64,000 nt of DNA from Candidatus Falkowbacteria bacterium (GCA_003518055.1 DOZJ01000002.1:55225-119224), one strand, 5' to 3'. Shown: positions 1,521 through 57,678, counted from the stretch's first letter. The notes: generated by a model from the sequence alone, not told the origin. Program-made: numbers and translations.

Positions 1521-1603
1521 TTCATTTCTCTAAACCCGCTACCCGCTACCCGCTACACGCTAAAAGCTAAAAGCTATAAGCTATAAGTAAAACGCTATTC
1601 GCT
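1521..1603. repeat. Short tandem repeats abutting a start codon: 3x 'cccgctac', then 'aagctaaa' and 'aagctata' units, ending ...cgctATG
   Basis: Direct reading of the sequence. 7-8 bp periodicity. No Shine-Dalgarno. Confidence 0.8.
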
Positions 1604-2593
1604 ATGTCAAAAGTCGCCGTCAATTTAGTCACGTGGAACGGAGCCAACTACATCAAGGGTTGTCTGGATTCTTTGTTTAATCAGACCTTCACGGACTTCT
1701 CTTTGATGATTATTGACAACGGCTCAACCGACGAAACTCTGGAATTGATCAATGAAAAGTATCCGCATTTAAAAATAGTTAAACACCGAAATAATCTTGG
1801 TTTTGCCAAGGCGCATAATCAGGCGATTCACTGGACCGACAGCGAGTATGTTTTGCTGCTGAATCAGGATATTCTGCTTGAGCCGGATTTTATTGCCAAG
1901 CTGGTGGCGTTCGCCGACACGCGGCCAGACTCTGGCGCCTTTACCGGCAAAATTCTCAAACTGCAAGACGGCCAAAAAACCAAATATATTGATTCCCTTG
2001 GTTTACGTTTGTTCAAAAATCACCGGGTGATTGATCTCGGCGCCGGCGAAATGGACGACAGTCAGTATGACGCAGTCGAAGAAGTTTTCGGCGTTTCCGG
2101 CGCGATTCCATTGTATCGCCGAGCTGCCTTGACGGCGGTTGAGATGGATAAACAGTTTTTTGATGAAGATTTTTTCAGCTACAAGGAAGATGTGGACTTG
2201 GCCTATCGGCTGCGTTCCGCCGGCTGGAAAGCGTTCAAAGTGCCGCCGGCCGTCGCTTATCATGACCGCTCAGTTGCTTTGCCGCAAAAAGATATGTCCA
2301 AACTTGAGCTGGCCAAAGCGCGGCGTCACCGATCAAAGTTTGCCAATTATTATTCCTATCGCAACCATTGGTATTTCCTGATCAAAAATTTACCTGATCT
2401 GAAACCCAAGCATTTATTGCCGGTTTTATGGTTTGAATTTATCAAATTTTTTTACATTTTATTTTTTGAGACCGCGAATTTGAAAATTATAAAAGAGGTT
2501 TGGGCCGAGCGTCATCGATTCCAAGCCAAACGCCGCCTTATCAAGGCCAAACAAAAAGCAAGGACTGAAGATATTGATTCATGGCTGACATAG
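1604..2593 (+). CDS. Glycosyltransferase family 2 (WcaA/rhamnosyltransferase-like)
   Basis: N-terminal 'VTWNGANYIKGCLDSL...IIDNGSTDET' plus DxD-type GT-A signatures. Confidence 0.75.
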   Translation: MSKVAVNLVTWNGANYIKGCLDSLFNQTFTDFSLMIIDNGSTDETLELINEKYPHLKIVKHRNNLGFAKAHNQAIHWTDSEYVLLLNQDILLEPDFIAKLVAFADTRPDSGAFTGKILKLQDGQKTKYIDSLGLRLFKNHRVIDLGAGEMDDSQYDAVEEVFGVSGAIPLYRRAALTAVEMDKQFFDEDFFSYKEDVDLAYRLRSAGWKAFKVPPAVAYHDRSVALPQKDMSKLELAKARRHRSKFANYYSYRNHWYFLIKNLPDLKPKHLLPVLWFEFIKFFYILFFETANLKIIKEVWAERHRFQAKRRLIKAKQKARTEDIDSWLT

Positions 2594-7794: not shown

Positions 7795-8102
7795 TATAAA
7801 AAATCCCATTTGTTCAGTTGCTCAAAATTTGGTAAACTAGGGGACGCGGGTGACATGAGGCGAGTGCCGCACACTTACCTCGATGTTACTGTCACCAAAT
7901 CCTTTTACCCTCACTATTCCCTTATTACACATTACTTCTCACTTATACTGTTTCCTCTTTACCACCCTCATCACCGTAATTTATTTATTTACCATCTCCC
8001 AATTCGTCCAAAATTTTTGTAGAAAGACTTTATCTAAACGACCCTTCATCTTGAAATTGTTTTTGTAAAAGCCAAACCTCCCAATTTCTTTCCAGAATAA
8101 TA

Positions 8103-8144
8103 TCTAATCTCGAATCTCCAATCTCTTAATCTCTTAATCTCTTC
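8103..8144. repeat. Tandem 7-8 bp repeat (t)aatctc(t), about 5 units, directly upstream of dnaE, ending ...tctccccctATG
   Basis: Direct reading. The same unit recurs at 57619-57668. Confidence 0.8.
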
Positions 8145-21137: not shown

Positions 21138-21176
21138 CCCTAAACCCTAAAAGCTAAACGCTAACCCCTAAACCCT
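21138..21176. repeat. Telomere-like heptamer repeats CCCTAAA / (a/c)GCTAAA abutting the rfbC start (...ccctATG)
   Basis: Direct reading of 'ccctaaaccctaaaagctaaacgctaacccctaaaccct'. Confidence 0.8.
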
Positions 21177-21632
21177 ATGATCTCCGGAGTTCAAATCAAA
21201 CCCATCAAACGCTTCTGCGATGACCGCGGTTATTTTTGCGAAGTTATTAAGTTCGGTGAAGACACTTATCACGAAGTCAAACAAACCAGCTATACCGAGA
21301 CGCATCCCGGCGTGATCAAAGCTTTCCATTGGCACAAAAAACAATGGGATGTCTGGTTCGTGGTTCGGGGTATGGCTCAGGTTGTGCTTCATGATATGCG
21401 CGATGACTCGCCAACCAAAGGCGAAACTCAAGTCATTTGCGCCGGCGAAGATAACCCGGTCTTGATTGCCATCCCGCCATTTGTGGCCCATGGTTATCGG
21501 GTTCTGGGAAACGAGAAGGTTTGTTTGTTTTATCACACGAGCGAAGCCTATGATCCGGCCAACCCGGATGAAGAGCGGATCGAATTTGACGACCCGAAAA
21601 TCGGCTTTGACTGGACCACCAAAAATCGTTAG
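21177..21632 (+). CDS. rfbC: dTDP-4-dehydrorhamnose 3,5-epimerase (short cupin form)
   Basis: 'DDRGYFCEV' and 'AFHWHKKQ' correspond to RmlC 'DERGFF' and 'GLHFQ' motifs. Confidence 0.7.
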   Translation: MISGVQIKPIKRFCDDRGYFCEVIKFGEDTYHEVKQTSYTETHPGVIKAFHWHKKQWDVWFVVRGMAQVVLHDMRDDSPTKGETQVICAGEDNPVLIAIPPFVAHGYRVLGNEKVCLFYHTSEAYDPANPDEERIEFDDPKIGFDWTTKNR

Positions 21633-23286: not shown

Positions 23287-23838
23287 ATGCACCAAGAATG
23301 GCAGACCATAAAAAGCAACGAGATTCACAAAAATCCTTGGTATCGTCTGGTTCAGGATGATGTGGTCATGCCGAGCGGCCAAGTTGGTAAATATACTTAT
23401 ATCGACCGCAGCCCGGGCGTGATTATCCTCGCTCTGACGCCGGGCAAAGAATTGTATATCGTTGGCCAATACCGCTACCCGGTCAAAAAGTTTTCCTGGG
23501 AATTGCCGATGGGTGCGGTTGAAACGGGGGATGCTGATGTTCTCAGCGCCGCCAAACGGGAGCTGTTGGAGGAGGTCGGGGTGGCCGCGGCCAAGTGGAC
23601 TGAGTTCGGCCATTTTGATTTTTGCAACGGCCTCTGCAACCAAGTAGCGCATATTTTTGTGGCGGAAGATTTGACCCAGCAGGAAGCCAATCCCGCCTTT
23701 ACCGAATTCATTACCATGAAACGAGTCCCGATCAATGAAATTGAACAGATGATCTCCCGCGGCGAGATTTCCAACGCCCCGACGATTAGCGCTTTTTATC
23801 GGTTTCAGTTGGGGAACAAGGGAGAGCAAGGGAGATAA
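23287..23838 (+). CDS. NUDIX hydrolase (ADP-ribose pyrophosphatase-like)
   Basis: Nudix box 'GAVETGDADVLSAAKRELLEEVGV'. Confidence 0.8.
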   Translation: MHQEWQTIKSNEIHKNPWYRLVQDDVVMPSGQVGKYTYIDRSPGVIILALTPGKELYIVGQYRYPVKKFSWELPMGAVETGDADVLSAAKRELLEEVGVAAAKWTEFGHFDFCNGLCNQVAHIFVAEDLTQQEANPAFTEFITMKRVPINEIEQMISRGEISNAPTISAFYRFQLGNKGEQGR

Positions 23839-23874
23839 GGGTTATCACGGGAAATCAAGGGGGATTTATAAGCC

Positions 23875-24110
23875 CGTGTCATGCTGAGCCCCGTCGAAGC
23901 ATAGACACGCGAAGGTGATTATTGAAACAAAAAACCAGGCTTCGAGAGCCTCAGCCTGACAAGACTGATAATCCAACATCCCAAAGGAATTTCAAGCATC
24001 AAAATAATTCGTGTCATGCTGAGCCCCGTCGAAGCATAGACACGCGAAGGTGATTATTGAAATAAAAAGCCAGGATTCGAGAGCTTCAATCTGACAAAAT
24101 AAGTAATCCT
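23875..24110. repeat. Two tandem copies (about 136-bp period) of a unit containing a conserved hairpin 'cgtgtcatgct-gagccccgtcga-agcatagacacg'
   Basis: The first 53 nt of each copy are identical (23875-23927 vs 24010-24062). The rest is about 85% similar. Confidence 0.7.
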
Positions 24111-24207
24111 ACATCCTCAACCCTACAACTTACTTCTTTCATTGACTTTTTATCAAATTTACCATAAGTTAAACATTACGGAGGGTTAATCTTCTAACGA
24201 TCGAATT

Positions 24208-25227
24208 ATGAAAATGCTTGTAACCGGAGGGGCCGGTTTTATCGGATCAAACTTTATCCGTTTTATTTTGACTAAATATCCTCATTACGCGGTAATTAAT
24301 TTTGATAAATTAACCTACGCCGGTAATTTGGAGAATCTGCGCGACGTTGAACATCACCCCAACTATTCTTTTGTTAAGGGTGATATTTTAAATACCGAAT
24401 TATTGATTCACGTGATGAAGGACGTGGACGTGGTCGCACATTTCGCGGCTGAGACCCACGTCGATCGCTCGATCCTCGGCGCCGACGCCTTTGTTCAGAC
24501 CAATGTTATCGGGACTTACTCTGTCATGGAGGCGGCGCGGCAGACCAAAGTTAAACGTTTTCACCATATTTCCACCGATGAAGTCTTTGGCTCGCTCGGG
24601 CCTGATGGTTATTTCACCGAAGACACGCCCTATGATCCTCGGAGTCCATACTCGGCGGCCAAGGCCGCCTCGGATCATTTGGTCCGGGCATATTATCACA
24701 CCCACGGCCTGCCGGCCACCATTTCCAACTGCACCAACAACTATGGCCCCTATATGTTTCCGGAAAAAATGATGCCGCTTTTTATCACCAATTTGCTCGA
24801 AGGCAAAAAAGTGCCGCTTTACGGCGACGGTTTGAATGTCCGCGACTGGATTCATGTCGACGATCACAATCGTGCCGTTGATTTGATTATTCACGAAGGT
24901 AAAGTGGGGGAGACCTACTGCATCAGCGCTAGGGAAGAAAAAACCAATCGGGAAGTTACTGATTTGGTTTTGCAAAAAATGGGTTTTGGCCCGGACATGA
25001 TCGAATACGTCGAAGACCGCAAAGGCCACGACCGGCGCTATGCCATCCGTCCCTATAAGCTGATGGCGGAACTGGGCTGGAAACCGGCCATCAGTTTTGA
25101 TCAGGGTTTGAGCCAGATGATCGAATGGTACAAGAATAATCCTGAATGGTGGAAGCGCGTCCGGAGTGGGGAGTACCAGAATTATTACGCCAAACAATAC
25201 GGCCAAAAAACCGGTATTACCATATAA
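24208..25227 (+). CDS. rfbB: dTDP-glucose 4,6-dehydratase
   Basis: 'MLVTGGAGFIGSNF' Rossmann start, 'YSAAKAASD' YxxxK. 339 aa. Confidence 0.9.
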   Translation: MKMLVTGGAGFIGSNFIRFILTKYPHYAVINFDKLTYAGNLENLRDVEHHPNYSFVKGDILNTELLIHVMKDVDVVAHFAAETHVDRSILGADAFVQTNVIGTYSVMEAARQTKVKRFHHISTDEVFGSLGPDGYFTEDTPYDPRSPYSAAKAASDHLVRAYYHTHGLPATISNCTNNYGPYMFPEKMMPLFITNLLEGKKVPLYGDGLNVRDWIHVDDHNRAVDLIIHEGKVGETYCISAREEKTNREVTDLVLQKMGFGPDMIEYVEDRKGHDRRYAIRPYKLMAELGWKPAISFDQGLSQMIEWYKNNPEWWKRVRSGEYQNYYAKQYGQKTGITI

Positions 25228-39147: not shown

Positions 39148-39432
39148 TCAATGGGTTTGACTTTCAACCAGTGTTTCTCTAATCATTTGCCTTAAAGTAG
39201 TTTTTCCTTTTGTTGTTTTAAAATATTTTTCGCGGCGCAAAGCGTCTTTTTTTGAAAGGTAGGCTTCGTAAAACACCAAAATCATTGGTAGCCTTTTGGC
39301 GGTAGAGACATTTTCGCCTCTCTGATGTTCAAGAACCCTTCGGTCAACCTCAGCCGAATATCCGATATAAAATTTATTATCCTTCAAGCTTTGAAGAACA
39401 TAAACGTAATAGAATTTTTTCACCATACTCAA
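39148..39432 (-). CDS. GIY-YIG nuclease family protein
   Basis: 'YVYVLQS...KFYIGYS...R...H' GIY-YIG core. 94 aa. Confidence 0.8.
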   Translation of the reverse strand: MSMVKKFYYVYVLQSLKDNKFYIGYSAEVDRRVLEHQRGENVSTAKRLPMILVFYEAYLSKKDALRREKYFKTTKGKTTLRQMIRETLVESQTH

Positions 39433-39493
39433 ATTGCAGTGAACCTGAAAAATAAATGGCGAGCCATGAACTCGAGCGTACGCGAGTAGTTCA

Positions 39494-39567
39494 TGGCTCG
39501 AGGCCAGGGATTCGAACCCCGATAGCTGGGACCAAAACCCAGAGTCCTACCATTAGACGAGCCTCGA
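39494..39567 (-). tRNA. tRNA-Gln (anticodon UUG)
   Basis: Hand-folded cloverleaf, 74 nt. Acceptor UCGAGGC/GCCUCGA with U1-A72 and G73 (GlnRS identity elements). D-loop AAUGGUA. Anticodon loop UUUUGGU. T-arm CGGGG-UUCGAAU-CCCUG. CCA encoded. Confidence 0.8.
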
Positions 39568-57420: not shown

Positions 57421-57616
57421 CCCGCACTGAAGTACAGGAAAAATGATTCTGGCCGGTTTGGATCTTTTCCCGCACTAAAGTACGGGAAAAGAAGGATGGG
57501 AAAAATGGTTTAGGCCGGTTTGAATCCTTTCCCCGCACTAAAGTACGGGAAAAGAATGGTGGGAAAAATGATTTTAGCCGGTTTAGATATTTCCCCGCAC
57601 TTCAGTGCGGGAAGCG
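57421..57616. repeat. Tandem array (about 3.5 units of about 62 bp), each unit starting with a GC-stem hairpin ccc(c)gcac-t(a/t)(a/c)ag-t(a/g)cggg
   Basis: Units at 57421, 57468, 57531 and 57594. First and last hairpins carry reverse-complementary loops (ctgaag vs cttcag). Spacer parts are also repeated, so this is not a CRISPR. Confidence 0.75.
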
Positions 57617-57618
57617 GG

Positions 57619-57668
57619 CTCAATCTCTCAATCTTTCAATCTCTTAATCTCTTAATCTCTTAATCTCT
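57619..57668. repeat. Tandem 8-mer (c/t)aatctct x about 6, ending ...tctctcccaccccATG
   Basis: Same unit as the one upstream of dnaE. Confidence 0.8.
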
Positions 57669-57678
57669 CTCCCACCCC

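What the first reader, a model, noticed from the sequence alone, without database searches (positions are those of the whole stretch)
23875..24110. Duplicated 136-bp element with a conserved imperfect hairpin upstream of rfbB
Two tandem copies occur, with the first 53 nt identical and the remainder about 85% similar. Each begins with the hairpin cgtgtcatgct-(12-nt loop)-agcatagacacg. It lies in the 370-bp gap between a Nudix gene and rfbB. This could be a duplicated small RNA, a regulatory or attenuator element, or a miniature repeat family.
Basis: seen in the sequence. Interest (0 to 1): 0.5.

Follow-up and report, generated by a model that had tools for sequence, protein, structure and literature searches.

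The report
Tandem REP-like hairpin-dimer repeat, Ssn-type
The duplicated element upstream of rfbB is two side-by-side copies of a small palindromic DNA repeat found across many bacterial phyla, of the hairpin type published as the target of small GIY-YIG single-strand DNA nucleases; it is not an rfbB-specific RNA switch, so it is a fairly ordinary find, though unusual in a tiny candidate-phyla-radiation genome.

Summary
Two direct copies (23875-23990 and 24010-24125, period 135) lie in the 369-nt Nudix-rfbB gap, and each starts with the same 35-nt hairpin.

Each copy is a dimer: a TGTC-tagged hairpin (TGTC-AT-GCTGAGC-CCC-GTCGAAGC-AT), an A-rich spacer, then a second hairpin unit in inverted orientation. 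The right unit is intact in copy 1 and decayed in copy 2.

The 22-nt hairpin core occurs exactly in at least 82 genome stretches from many phyla, usually in the same dimer layout. Three of its base pairs covary strongly.

In Bacteroidota, Alphaproteobacteria and Cyanobacteria, such units flank small single-domain GIY-YIG genes. This matches the published Ssn nuclease / SRM repeat system (Chenal 2025) and the CGTC-tagged REPs (Di Nocera 2013).

The closest Falkowbacteria relative has a different dimer at the same site, and more distant relatives have none. Other assemblies show a one-copy form. A conserved promoter-like block lies downstream of the repeats.

It is therefore a DNA-level repeat, not an rfbB attenuator or small RNA. 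No cognate nuclease gene lies next to it, and the units fail the published SRM search pattern. I class it as a new member of a known kind, of modest interest.

The parts
23875..23990 (+). Copy 1 of the repeat (~116 nt): left hairpin unit, spacer, inverted right unit, shared 3' tail
   Evidence: As ssDNA the dimer folds with z = -3.3 on the + strand and -4.2 on the - strand.
23876..23908 (+). Copy 1 left unit: tag GTGTC, then the hairpin ATGCT-GAGCCCCGTCGA-AGCAT. It is extended locally by A-GACAC, which pairs with the tag.
   Evidence: Exact string match. All 7 family base pairs are satisfied. DNA fold -8.9 kcal/mol, z = -3.5.
23910..23934 (.). Copy 1 spacer, A-rich (CGAAGGTGATTATTGAAACAAAAAA)
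   Evidence: It is 28% G+C against 60-63% for the two units.
23935..23961 (-). Copy 1 right unit, inverted. On the minus strand it reads TGTCAGGCTGAGGCTCTCGAAGCCTGG. Intact.
   Evidence: 7 of 7 family pairs. The same core, CTGAGGCTCTCGAAG, is seen in other genomes. The scan also flags it as a minus-strand terminator-like hairpin with a T-run.
23962..23990 (+). Copy 1 3' tail, shared with copy 2 at about 56% identity
23991..24009 (.). Junction between the copies; not repeated (3/19 identity to the matching stretch after copy 2)
24010..24125 (+). Copy 2 of the repeat. The left unit is identical to that of copy 1; the rest is diverged.
   Evidence: The dimer fold is no better than shuffles, z = -1.1.
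24011..24043 (+). Copy 2 left unit, identical to the copy 1 left unit
24070..24096 (-). Copy 2 right unit, decayed. Three of 7 pairs are broken by C/G-to-A/T changes.
   Evidence: DNA fold -0.7 kcal/mol, z = +0.65.
24141..24207 (+). Block conserved with the closest relative. I read it as the rfbB promoter (TTGACT, 17 nt, TAAGTT) and 5' leader. It lies downstream of both repeat copies and is not part of the repeat.
   Evidence: Alignment with L101. The promoter reading is my inference; the tool's consensus scan did not call it.
23287..23838 (+). Upstream gene: NUDIX hydrolase (ADP-ribose pyrophosphatase). Context only.
24208..25227 (+). Downstream gene: rfbB, dTDP-glucose 4,6-dehydratase. Context only.

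Best explanation
The element is a tandem pair of non-coding palindromic DNA repeats of the 'CGTC/TGTC-tagged REP' type, also published as 'Ssn-related motif' (SRM).

Each copy is a dimer. It has a left hairpin unit (tag TGTC; stem A-T, T-A, G-C, C-G, T-A; an internal G-A/A-G step; then G-C and C-G closing a 3-nt loop), an A-rich spacer, and a second unit in inverted orientation.

Such units act as single-stranded DNA hairpins. In other bacteria they flank, and are bound and cut a few nucleotides 5' of the tag by, small single-domain GIY-YIG nucleases called Ssn. The nuclease activity is shown for Neisseria and Wolbachia homologues in PMC11893778. I infer it here by analogy.

The copies in this Candidatus Falkowbacteria genome are non-autonomous passengers. 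They sit between the Nudix stop codon and the rfbB promoter.
- The site already held a dimer in the common ancestor with the CG10 relative.
- The array now varies between one and two copies.
- The right arm of copy 2 is decaying by AT-biased mutation.
- The two left hairpins are kept identical, by gene conversion or by selection. This step is inferred.

Any effect on Nudix or rfbB expression would be a side effect.
For: Shown here:
1. Family. The 22-nt core ATGCTGAGCCCCGTCGAAGCAT occurs exactly in 82 stretches of species-representative genomes. These include Mucilaginibacter (many per genome), Hymenobacter, Taibaiella, Chlorobiota, Ignavibacteria, Armatimonadota, Vulcanimicrobiota, Binatia, Deltaproteobacteria, Dehalococcoidia, Leptospirales and Clostridia. 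A version with a free loop occurs in 12 IMG/VR contigs.
2. Architecture. In those loci the unit is mostly paired with an inverted partner. There were 43 tag-outward pairs less than 60 nt apart, against 10 in the opposite arrangement, and 54 dimers, mostly 71-75 bp. The window copies have the same layout.
3. Structure. On 84 units not selected by their stems, 94.9% of cells pair against 81.3% in shuffles. There are 81 double-sided changes against 21 +/- 5, with 0 of 500 shuffles as high. Pairs 7-26, 8-25 and 14-18 each show 3-4 pair types.
4. Nuclease link. Ten non-CPR GIY-YIG loci were inspected, including ones found by protein similarity only. All ten have tagged hairpin units within about 100 nt: L096, L039, L024, L082, L108, L109, L114 Methylobacterium, L115 Sphingomonas, L116 Planktothrix and L117 Spirosoma. 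Background unit density is about 0.12 per kb. This reproduces the published Ssn/SRM association (PMC11893778).
5. Not an rfbB regulator. Nudix-rfbB synteny is kept in relatives, but the spacer has no unit in L104 and L106 (58-59% Nudix identity) and a differently built dimer in L101-L103 (82%). The conserved promoter-like block is downstream of the repeats. There is no Rfam hit.
6. Turnover. Contigs L004 and L006, from other samples, carry a one-copy form.
7. Non-neutral identity pattern. There are 0 differences in 35 nt of the left hairpin against 17 in 54 nt of right unit plus tail, P about 2e-6. The left edge of the homology lies 2 nt 5' of the TGTC tag. That is the region where Ssn enzymes cut.
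Against: - No GIY-YIG gene lies next to the element.
- The only GIY-YIG gene in the window (39148-39411, 15 kb away) belongs to a tRNA-linked CPR type. It carries no such units here or in 4 other CPR contigs.
- The units do not match the published degenerate SRM search sequence.
- The base after the palindrome is A or G, not the C shown to be critical for N. meningitidis SsnA binding (PMC11893778).
- In the window the tag itself can pair with GACAC just 3' of the hairpin. This is not the published unpaired-tag arrangement.
- Only two copies occur in 64 kb. A JGI metagenome scan for the element-specific spacer found only this same locus. Multi-copy spread within this genome is therefore not shown.
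- The one-copy form could be an assembler collapse.
- No transcription or biochemical data exist for this organism.
Confidence: 0.72

Rival explanations
1. A cis-regulatory RNA leader (attenuator or riboswitch-like) of rfbB. The hairpins would form in the 5' UTR and control read-through into rfbB.
For: It sits directly upstream of rfbB on the coding strand. Stable hairpins are present.
Against: - It is not conserved in the syntenic spacer of relatives.
- The block that is conserved with the closest relative, with a TTGACT-17-TAAGTT promoter-like site, lies downstream of both copies. The rfbB transcript would then probably start after them.
- The same hairpin occurs in unrelated gene contexts in many phyla.
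- There is no Rfam match.
- The whole-gap fold gives z about -0.9.
- Neither left hairpin is followed by a U-run on the + strand.
Confidence: 0.04
2. An RNA-level REP function. The hairpins would lie at the 3' end of the Nudix transcript and act as a terminator, insulator or 3'-end stabiliser. The family would be kept for that reason.
For: - The element starts 36 nt after the Nudix stop codon, the typical position of REPs between genes read in the same direction (PMC3733652).
- In Sphingobacteriaceae the dimers are framed by an A-run on the left (26/54) and a T-run on the right (24/54). This looks like a bidirectional intrinsic terminator.
- The copy 1 right unit followed by T6 is called terminator-like on the minus strand.
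Against: - On the + strand, the only strand with genes here, no hairpin is followed by a T-run.
- The copy 2 right arm is decaying.
- N. meningitidis SsnA does not bind the RNA form of its motif (PMC11893778).
- The element is absent in relatives with the same gene order.
- This may be a secondary effect rather than the reason the family exists.
Confidence: 0.15
3. A neutral, locus-specific tandem duplication that belongs to no wider family.
For: Only two copies are seen, side by side. No other copy of this spacer exists in JGI metagenomes.
Against: - The hairpin core and the dimer layout are shared with hundreds of elements elsewhere and show covariation.
- A related dimer sits at the same site in a relative.
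- Divergence between the copies is strongly non-uniform, P about 2e-6.
- The last 19 nt of the period are not duplicated.
Confidence: 0.03
4. A duplicated small-RNA gene transcribed from its own promoter.
For: One weak promoter-like site lies on the minus strand at 23995-23968. There are weak sub-threshold Rfam hits to RF02901.
Against: - Promoter-like sites are no more frequent than in shuffles: 1 found, 1.9 expected.
- The Rfam score is 14.9 bits against a gathering score of 97.
- There is no conservation as a unit in relatives.
Confidence: 0.03

Closest known systems
Ssn-related motifs (SRM / NTS hairpin repeats) with single-domain GIY-YIG Ssn nucleases (Chenal et al. 2025, Nat Commun 16:2388, PMC11893778)
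   Same: - Head H-G-T-C-W-Y (here TGTCAT) directly 5' of a 20-50 nt hairpin.
- The units are oriented and intergenic, often in inverted pairs.
- In unit-rich genomes, units of the window's CTGAG...TCGAAG type flank 92-98 aa single-domain GIY-YIG genes on one or both sides. This is the NTS-ssnA-NTS layout of the paper.
   Different: - The window units and their Bacteroidota, Cyanobacteria and Alphaproteobacteria relatives fail the published degenerate SRM pattern.
- The stem carries an internal G-A/A-G step instead of a perfect GC-rich stem.
- The base after the palindrome is not C.
- No ssn gene is adjacent.
- The copy number in this genome appears very low.
- The host is a CPR bacterium.
CGTC-tagged REP superfamily (Di Nocera, De Gregorio & Rocco 2013, BMC Genomics 14:522, PMC3733652)
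   Same: - Terminal tag CGTC, with TGTC listed as a common variant.
- The first two stem pairs are A-T and T-A.
- The elements are mostly inverted dimers with 20-100 bp spacers.
- They are placed just downstream of the upstream ORF between genes read in the same direction.
- They are found across several phyla, including Bacteroidetes, Chlorobi and Spirochaetes.
   Different: - The described families have uninterrupted 8-9 bp stems, 4-5 nt loops and a CCA tail. Here there are 5 Watson-Crick pairs, 2 non-canonical positions, 2 more pairs, a 3-nt loop and the tail AGA.
- That paper found no dedicated enzyme.
- I could not see its Figure 2 consensus sequences, so I cannot say whether this sequence type is one of its four families.
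REPINs / BIMEs mobilised by RAYT tyrosine transposases (Bertels & Rainey 2011, PMC3116915; Nunvar 2010, PMC2817692)
   Same: Two hairpin REPs in inverted orientation around a short spacer, able to fold as one long hairpin. They are non-autonomous and vertically persistent at a site, and they decay into singletons.
   Different: - The tag is GTAG, not TGTC.
- The partner enzyme is a Y1 HUH transposase (PF01797), not a GIY-YIG nuclease.
- REPINs are typically present in tens to hundreds of copies per genome.
MITEs (miniature inverted-repeat transposable elements)
   Same: Small size (~90-116 nt), terminal inverted repeats, non-coding and intergenic.
   Different: - No target-site duplication is evident. 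Only a weak 7-8 nt direct match flanks copy 2, in AT-rich sequence.
- Each arm is itself a covarying hairpin, which is not a MITE property.
- No parent IS with these ends was seen.

Membership tests
SRM / Ssn system (PMC11893778) | Matches the published degenerate SRM search sequence HGTCWYN(0-2)YYVSBRHN(0-5)WNVSBRGN(0-2)RNCYNB | tested here: not met
   The regex scan gave 0 hits in the window on both strands. The window units and the units beside the Mucilaginibacter L082 gene and the Spirosoma and Planktothrix GIY-YIG genes, plus Mucilaginibacter and Hymenobacter dimer units, all fail. A canonical NTS passes as positive control. The failure is at the S position, which is A in the CTGAGC stem.
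SRM / Ssn system (PMC11893778) | Oriented head (H)GTC + W + Y immediately 5' of a hairpin-forming palindrome | tested here: met
   TGTCAT precedes the stem in both left units, and TGTCAG in the right unit of copy 1. The hairpin is supported by covariation across 84 units.
SRM / Ssn system (PMC11893778) | Cytosine immediately after the palindrome (most critical base for N. meningitidis SsnA binding) | tested here: not met
   The next base is A for the left units (AGCAT-A) and G for the right unit. Hymenobacter members do have C.
SRM / Ssn system (PMC11893778) | Units flank a single-domain GIY-YIG (ssn) gene in genomes that carry them | tested here: inconclusive
   Met for this unit type in other phyla: 10 of 10 non-CPR GIY-YIG loci. 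Not met locally: the window's GIY-YIG gene (39148-39411) has no units next to it, nor do 4 CPR homologues.
SRM / Ssn system (PMC11893778) | The partner protein belongs to CDD family cd10448 and cuts the motif as ssDNA only | not testable with these tools
   Only Pfam PF01541 and similarity to the UPF0213 structures 1ZG2 and 1YWL could be shown. No CDD library, no N. meningitidis SsnA sequence and no biochemistry were available.
CGTC-tagged REPs (PMC3733652) | Terminal tetranucleotide CGTC (accepted variants TGTC, CCTC), not involved in the unit's own pairing | tested here: inconclusive
   The TGTC tag is present. In the window, however, GTGTC can pair with a local GACAC. In most other members it pairs only with the far end of the partner unit.
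CGTC-tagged REPs (PMC3733652) | Stem of 8-9 bp that starts with complementary A-T and T-A; loop of 4-5 nt | tested here: inconclusive
   The first two pairs, A-T and T-A, are met. The stem spans 9 positions, but 2 of them are G-A/A-G. The loop is 3 nt if pair 14-18 forms, and that pair covaries (CG 67, UA 8, GC 7).
CGTC-tagged REPs (PMC3733652) | Short unpaired 3' tail, consensus CCA | tested here: not met
   The tail is AGA for the left units and GGT for the right unit.
CGTC-tagged REPs (PMC3733652) | Mostly inverted dimers with the tags outward and spacers of 20-100 bp | tested here: met
   Both window copies are such dimers, with about 26 nt between the extended left hairpin and the right unit. 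In other genomes there are 43 such pairs against 10 of the opposite type.
CGTC-tagged REPs (PMC3733652) | Multi-copy within a genome (tens to thousands) | tested here: inconclusive
   Only 2 copies occur in 64 kb, and the spacer-specific metagenome scan found only this locus. The rest of the genome, at least 490 kb, was not available.
REPIN / RAYT | GTAG tag and an associated Y1 (RAYT) transposase | tested here: not met
   The tag is TGTC. The genes found between units are GIY-YIG (PF01541), not Y1_Tnp.
Rfam RNA families | Score at or above a family's gathering threshold | tested here: not met
   The best overlapping hit is RF02901 at 14.9 bits, against a gathering score of 97. A Mucilaginibacter dimer behaves the same way.

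The most novel reading that the evidence does not exclude
The CTGAG-N(4-6)-TCGAAG hairpin dimers may be a distinct pan-bacterial class of Ssn target repeats. This class lies outside the published SRM definition and has its own clade of about 95-aa GIY-YIG nucleases.

The Falkowbacteria locus may then record their mobility directly. Four features point that way:
- a repeat edge 2 nt 5' of the tag;
- a 5'-to-3' decay of identity between the copies;
- one-copy and two-copy alleles;
- a unit core nested in the loop of another unit in the sister genome.

Together these would be footprints of nuclease-initiated copying at hairpin tips. That would make SRM dimers true mobile elements and would bring them into CPR genomes.
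Probability: 0.2. Interest if true: 0.55.

Novelty: new member of a known kind. Interest (0 to 1): 0.3.

Why it matters
- It removes a tempting false lead. The hairpins are not an rfbB riboswitch, attenuator or small RNA.
- It shows that a hairpin type with a 22-nt core shared exactly across many phyla belongs with the CGTC-tagged REP / Ssn-related repeats, even though the published SRM search pattern misses it. Surveys using that pattern may therefore under-count these repeats, for example in Sphingobacteriaceae, where these units flank GIY-YIG genes.
- It places such a repeat in a streamlined CPR genome, where repeats are rare.
- CPR genomes are usually thought to depend on DNA uptake, so a single-strand-DNA-specific nuclease system could matter there. 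That link is speculative.
- The practical value is mainly for annotation and for widening the motif definition.

Tried and rejected
1. Rfam scans of the gap, of a Mucilaginibacter dimer array and of the tRNA/GIY-YIG region found nothing relevant.
2. The whole-gap RNA folds on both strands are no better than shuffles. Only the individual units and the copy 1 dimer stand out.
3. Full-text search for the core strings found no paper.
4. I considered a hammerhead-like reading of CUGA...GAA and rejected it by inspection. Stem II and the UGA of the core are missing, and Rfam gives no match.
5. I first thought the GIY-YIG link might be new, because Di Nocera 2013 reported no dedicated enzyme. Literature search then showed it was published in 2025 as Ssn/SRM.
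6. I tested whether the window's own GIY-YIG gene is the partner. It and 4 CPR homologues carry no such units and are instead tRNA-linked, so the link is unsupported.
7. I looked for instance-specific palindromic targets around the dimers. Flank complementarity is no higher than with shuffled partners, 3.09 against 3.14 of 8 positions. The A-run/T-run frame is a shared consensus, not a per-site palindrome.
8. A generic scan of the window for GTC-tagged perfect hairpins found 12, against 9.5 in shuffles. There is no second hairpin family here.
9. I looked for a gene flanked by units at 0.3-3 kb in the fetched loci. Only L096 qualified, and it led to the GIY-YIG gene.
10. Exact cross-phylum identity of the 22-mer is not evidence of recent transfer. 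Only about 5 positions are free, roughly 1000 variants, so coincidences are expected in a large family.

Full report
**1. The observation**

The 369-nt gap lies between a NUDIX hydrolase gene (23287-23838, +) and rfbB, dTDP-glucose 4,6-dehydratase (24208-25227, +). It contains two direct copies of a sequence at a 135-nt period: 23875-23981 and 24010-24116, 89% identical without gaps.

The 35-nt string CGTGTCATGCTGAGCCCCGTCGAAGCATAGACACG occurs exactly twice in the 64-kb window. It occurred in none of 100 shuffles, even with 3 mismatches allowed.

The first 53 nt are identical. The next 54 nt are 78% identical. By segment, identity is 35/35, 25/27, 22/27, 15/27 and 3/19. The repeat is therefore about 116 nt, followed by a ~19-nt unrelated junction. 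It is not a clean 136-nt tandem unit.

The window comes from a groundwater metagenome contig of a Candidatus Falkowbacteria bacterium, a CPR/Patescibacteria lineage.

**2. Anatomy**

Comparison with related sequences (section 3) shows that each copy is a dimer.
- Left unit: tag (G)TGTC, then ATGCT-GAGCCCCGTCGA-AGCAT.
- Spacer: A-rich, CGAAGGTGATTATTGAAAYAAAAAR.
- Right unit: a second unit in inverted orientation. In copy 1 the minus strand of 23935-23961 reads TGTCAGGCTGAGGCTCTCGAAGCCTGG.

The copy 1 right unit satisfies all seven family base pairs. The copy 2 right unit (24070-24096) has three pairs broken by C/G-to-A/T changes. It no longer folds: -0.7 kcal/mol, z = +0.65.

The copy 1 dimer folds well on both strands, z = -3.3 and -4.2. 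The copy 2 dimer does not, z = -1.1.

**3. A very wide family**

A scan of IMG/VR with the loop left free (ATGCTGAGCNNNGTCGAAGCAT) gave 12 contigs.

The exact 22-mer gave 82 stretches in GTDB species-representative genomes. They come from:
- Mucilaginibacter, with many copies per genome;
- Hymenobacter, Taibaiella and other Bacteroidota;
- Chlorobiota, Ignavibacteria, Armatimonadota and Vulcanimicrobiota;
- Binatia, Deltaproteobacteria, Dehalococcoidia, Leptospirales and Clostridia.

Reading the flanks shows the common layout: GGG-TGTCA-xy-CTGAGC-nnn-GTCGAAG-y'x'-T, a ~25-nt GC-rich spacer, then the mirror-image unit ending TGACA-CCC.
- In 723 kb of fetched loci I found 177 units.
- 43 neighbouring pairs were tag-outward and less than 60 nt apart, against 10 in the opposite arrangement.
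- There were 54 clean dimers, mostly 71-75 bp.

To test structure without circularity, I collected units selected only by CTGAG...TCGAAG and excluded the searched 22-mer. This gave 96 units, 84 of them distinct.
- The two positions next to the core pair in 94-96% of units, against 52-67% for shuffled partners.
- On alignment A3, 94.9% of cells pair against 81.3% in shuffles.
- There are 81 double-sided changes against 21 +/- 5, with 0 of 500 shuffles as high.
- Sliding the partner by 1-3 columns drops pairing to 33-49%.
- Pair 7-26: CG 42, UA 30, GC 4.
- Pair 8-25: CG 50, GC 14, UA 8, AU 4.
- Pair 14-18: CG 67, UA 8, GC 7.

The hairpin is therefore a selected single-strand structure. It has an internal G-A/A-G step and a 2-3 nt loop. 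Only about five positions are free, so exact cross-phylum identity of a 22-mer is expected by coincidence. It does not by itself show recent transfer. That last point is my inference.

**4. Not an rfbB regulator**

The NUDIX protein has Falkowbacteria homologues at 82% and 58-59% identity. All keep the Nudix-rfbB order.

The 58-59% relatives (L104, L106) have no unit in the spacer.

The 82% relative (CG10; L101-L103) has a single, differently built dimer at the same place. It has the same TGTCATGCTGAGC...GTCGAAGCAT outer unit, but a second core is nested in its loop, the spacer is 7 nt, and the right unit is different. It folds with z = -3.8.

What the window and CG10 share is the last ~67 nt before the ATG, window 24141-24207. 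This block contains TTGACT, 17 nt, TAAGTT in both genomes. I read it as the rfbB promoter. That is an inference, and the tool's stricter scan did not call it. On this reading both repeat copies lie upstream of the rfbB transcription start.

Further points against an RNA regulator:
- Rfam has nothing. The best overlapping hit is 14.9 bits against a threshold of 97.
- The whole gap folds no better than shuffles.

**5. Turnover at the locus**

Contigs from other samples either break inside the repeat (L002, L005) or carry a one-copy version (L004 from ERZ27254750, L006 from JGI 3300025088). The one-copy version consists of the copy 1 left flank, the shared 53 nt and the copy 2 right part. This is either a real allele or an assembler collapse. 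Reads would be needed to decide.

A JGI metagenome scan for the element-specific spacer (GACACGCGAAGGTGATTATTG) found only that same contig. No further unit occurs in the 64-kb window with up to 3 mismatches. Spread within this genome is therefore not shown.

The divergence pattern between the copies is not neutral.
- There are 0 differences in 35 nt of the left hairpin, against 17 in 54 nt of right unit plus tail. P is about 2e-6, or 8e-4 using the right unit alone.
- The homology starts 2 nt 5' of the TGTC tag.

**6. What the family is**

In L096, two inverted units flank a 98-aa ORF. This ORF and neighbours of the units in L039, L024 and L082 are single-domain GIY-YIG proteins (PF01541, E 1e-16 to 1e-18).

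In L039 the gene sits inside a split dimer. In L024 and L109 it sits between complete dimers.

Genes found by protein similarity alone show the same thing:
- P0211 in L108 and P0149 in L109;
- plasmid hits from Methylobacterium, Sphingomonas, Planktothrix and Spirosoma.

Each of these has lineage-specific TGTC-, CGTC-, CCTC- or GTTC-tagged CTGAG...CGAAG-type hairpins within about 100 nt. That makes 10 of 10 loci, against a background of about 0.12 units per kb.

The literature explains this.
- Di Nocera et al. 2013 (PMC3733652) defined 'CGTC-tagged REPs'. TGTC is a listed tag variant. The stems start A-T, T-A. The elements are mostly inverted dimers with 20-100 bp spacers, occur in five phyla, and had no known enzyme.
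- Chenal et al. 2025 (PMC11893778) showed that about 94-aa single-domain GIY-YIG proteins, which they named Ssn (CDD cd10448), are site-specific ssDNA endonucleases.
- These enzymes bind such hairpins (NTS/SRM) and cut a few nucleotides 5' of the motif. They do not act on dsDNA or RNA.
- Their genes are typically flanked by the motifs.
- In N. meningitidis they limit transformation by motif-containing DNA.

My association result is therefore a re-finding, not a discovery.

**7. Membership**

The window units share the head HGTCWY and the hairpin, and they are arranged as dimers. Three features do not fit.
- They fail the published degenerate SRM pattern, as do the Mucilaginibacter, Hymenobacter, Spirosoma and Planktothrix units. 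A canonical NTS passes.
- They lack the C after the palindrome.
- They lack the CCA tail and the uninterrupted 8-9 bp stem of the described CGTC families.

I therefore file the element as 'works like, and is related to, the SRM / CGTC-REP kind', in a sequence class that the published definitions do not capture. I do not file it as a proven SRM.

**8. The local nuclease question**

The window encodes one small GIY-YIG protein (39148-39411, minus strand, 92 aa).
- PF01541, E 2.7e-13.
- 37% identity to the Mucilaginibacter-type protein over 67 aa.
- Its best solved relatives are the UPF0213 structures 1YWL and 1ZG2.

It is 15 kb from the repeats, has no units beside it, and lies about 80 nt downstream of tRNA-Gln. 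Its CPR homologues (60-82% identity, many CPR lineages) are likewise tRNA-linked and unit-free in 4 of 4 contigs. A functional link to the repeats is unsupported.

**9. Mechanism**

*Shown:*
- The element is a tandem pair of hairpin dimers from a widespread family whose hairpin covaries.
- Related units flank GIY-YIG genes.
- The element is not conserved as an rfbB leader.

*From the literature:* such hairpins are ssDNA targets of Ssn nucleases.

*Inferred:*
- The copies are non-autonomous elements inherited at this site since before the split from the CG10 relative.
- Copy number changes by recombination, or by nuclease-initiated copying that starts just 5' of the tag. That would explain the sharp left edge and the 5'-to-3' identity gradient.
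- The copy 2 right arm is decaying.
- Effects on Nudix 3' ends are possible side effects.

**10. Verdict**

The kind is known, and this sequence class and host are new. Interest is modest.

Noticed in passing
window 39148-39567 (minus strand); also L118, L119, L124, L125: A 92-aa single-domain GIY-YIG gene sits about 80 nt downstream of tRNA-Gln(ttg). Homologues at 60-82% identity occur across many CPR lineages. In 4 of 4 other contigs the gene is again about 140-150 nt downstream of a tRNA (Gln or Met). The spacer there holds a conserved structured block: GAGCCATGAACTACTCGC...CTCGAGTTCATGGC ... GCGAGTAGTTCATGCAGTGAACC...GGTTCACTG. It looks like a tRNA-3'-linked GIY-YIG cassette with its own hairpins. 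No Rfam match apart from the tRNA.
   Followed up: partly
L004:1-266 and L006:1-262, against window 23815-24215: Short contigs from two other samples carry a one-copy version of the repeat: the copy 1 left flank, the shared 53 nt and the copy 2 right part. Contigs L002 and L005 break inside the repeat. This is either copy-number polymorphism or an assembler collapse.
   Followed up: partly
L101:4584-4675 (Falkowbacteria CG10 relative; the same in L102 and L103): At the same Nudix-rfbB site the relative has one dimer. Its left unit carries a second CTGAGC...GTCGAAGG core nested inside its loop. This may be an insertion at a hairpin tip.
   Followed up: partly
window 24141-24207: A block about 85-90% identical to the CG10 relative, with TTGACT-17-TAAGTT and a conserved ACGGAGGGTTAATC. 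The GGAGGG lies 21 nt before the annotated ATG, too far for a normal ribosome-binding site. It is either a leader element or the start codon is mis-set.
   Followed up: no
L024, L030, L053, L070, L083 and other Sphingobacteriaceae loci: The 71-75 bp dimers are framed by an A-run on the left (26/54) and a T-run on the right (24/54). Each one therefore looks like a bidirectional intrinsic terminator.
   Followed up: partly
L034, L051, L055, L086, L054, L069 (Binatia / Deltaproteobacteria MAGs): The same 22-nt hairpin sits inside a different conserved repeat...GGAAATTTTCCGTTC-[hairpin]-TCATAGGGTTTTTCAGCAG.... It has a GTTC tag and no inverted partner nearby.
   Followed up: no
window 23877-23961 (minus) and L024:1243-1344 (minus): Both the window element and a Mucilaginibacter dimer give weak, far sub-threshold Rfam hits to the same family, RF02901 Aggregatibacter sRNA 41 (14.9 and 16.4 bits; gathering score 97). 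That 'sRNA' may itself contain a REP-like hairpin.
   Followed up: no
window 1534-1605, 8098-8143, 21138-21177, 57437-57669: Several short tandem arrays: ACCCGCT x4, GCTAAAA x5.6, TAATCTCT x5, CCCTAAA x5.7, CTCAATCT x6.4 and a 63-nt unit x2.8.
   Followed up: no
window 23817-23835: The 3' end of the NUDIX ORF carries a CAAGGGAGAG x1.9 repeat. The one-copy contigs L004 and L006 both start within a few bases of it.
   Followed up: no
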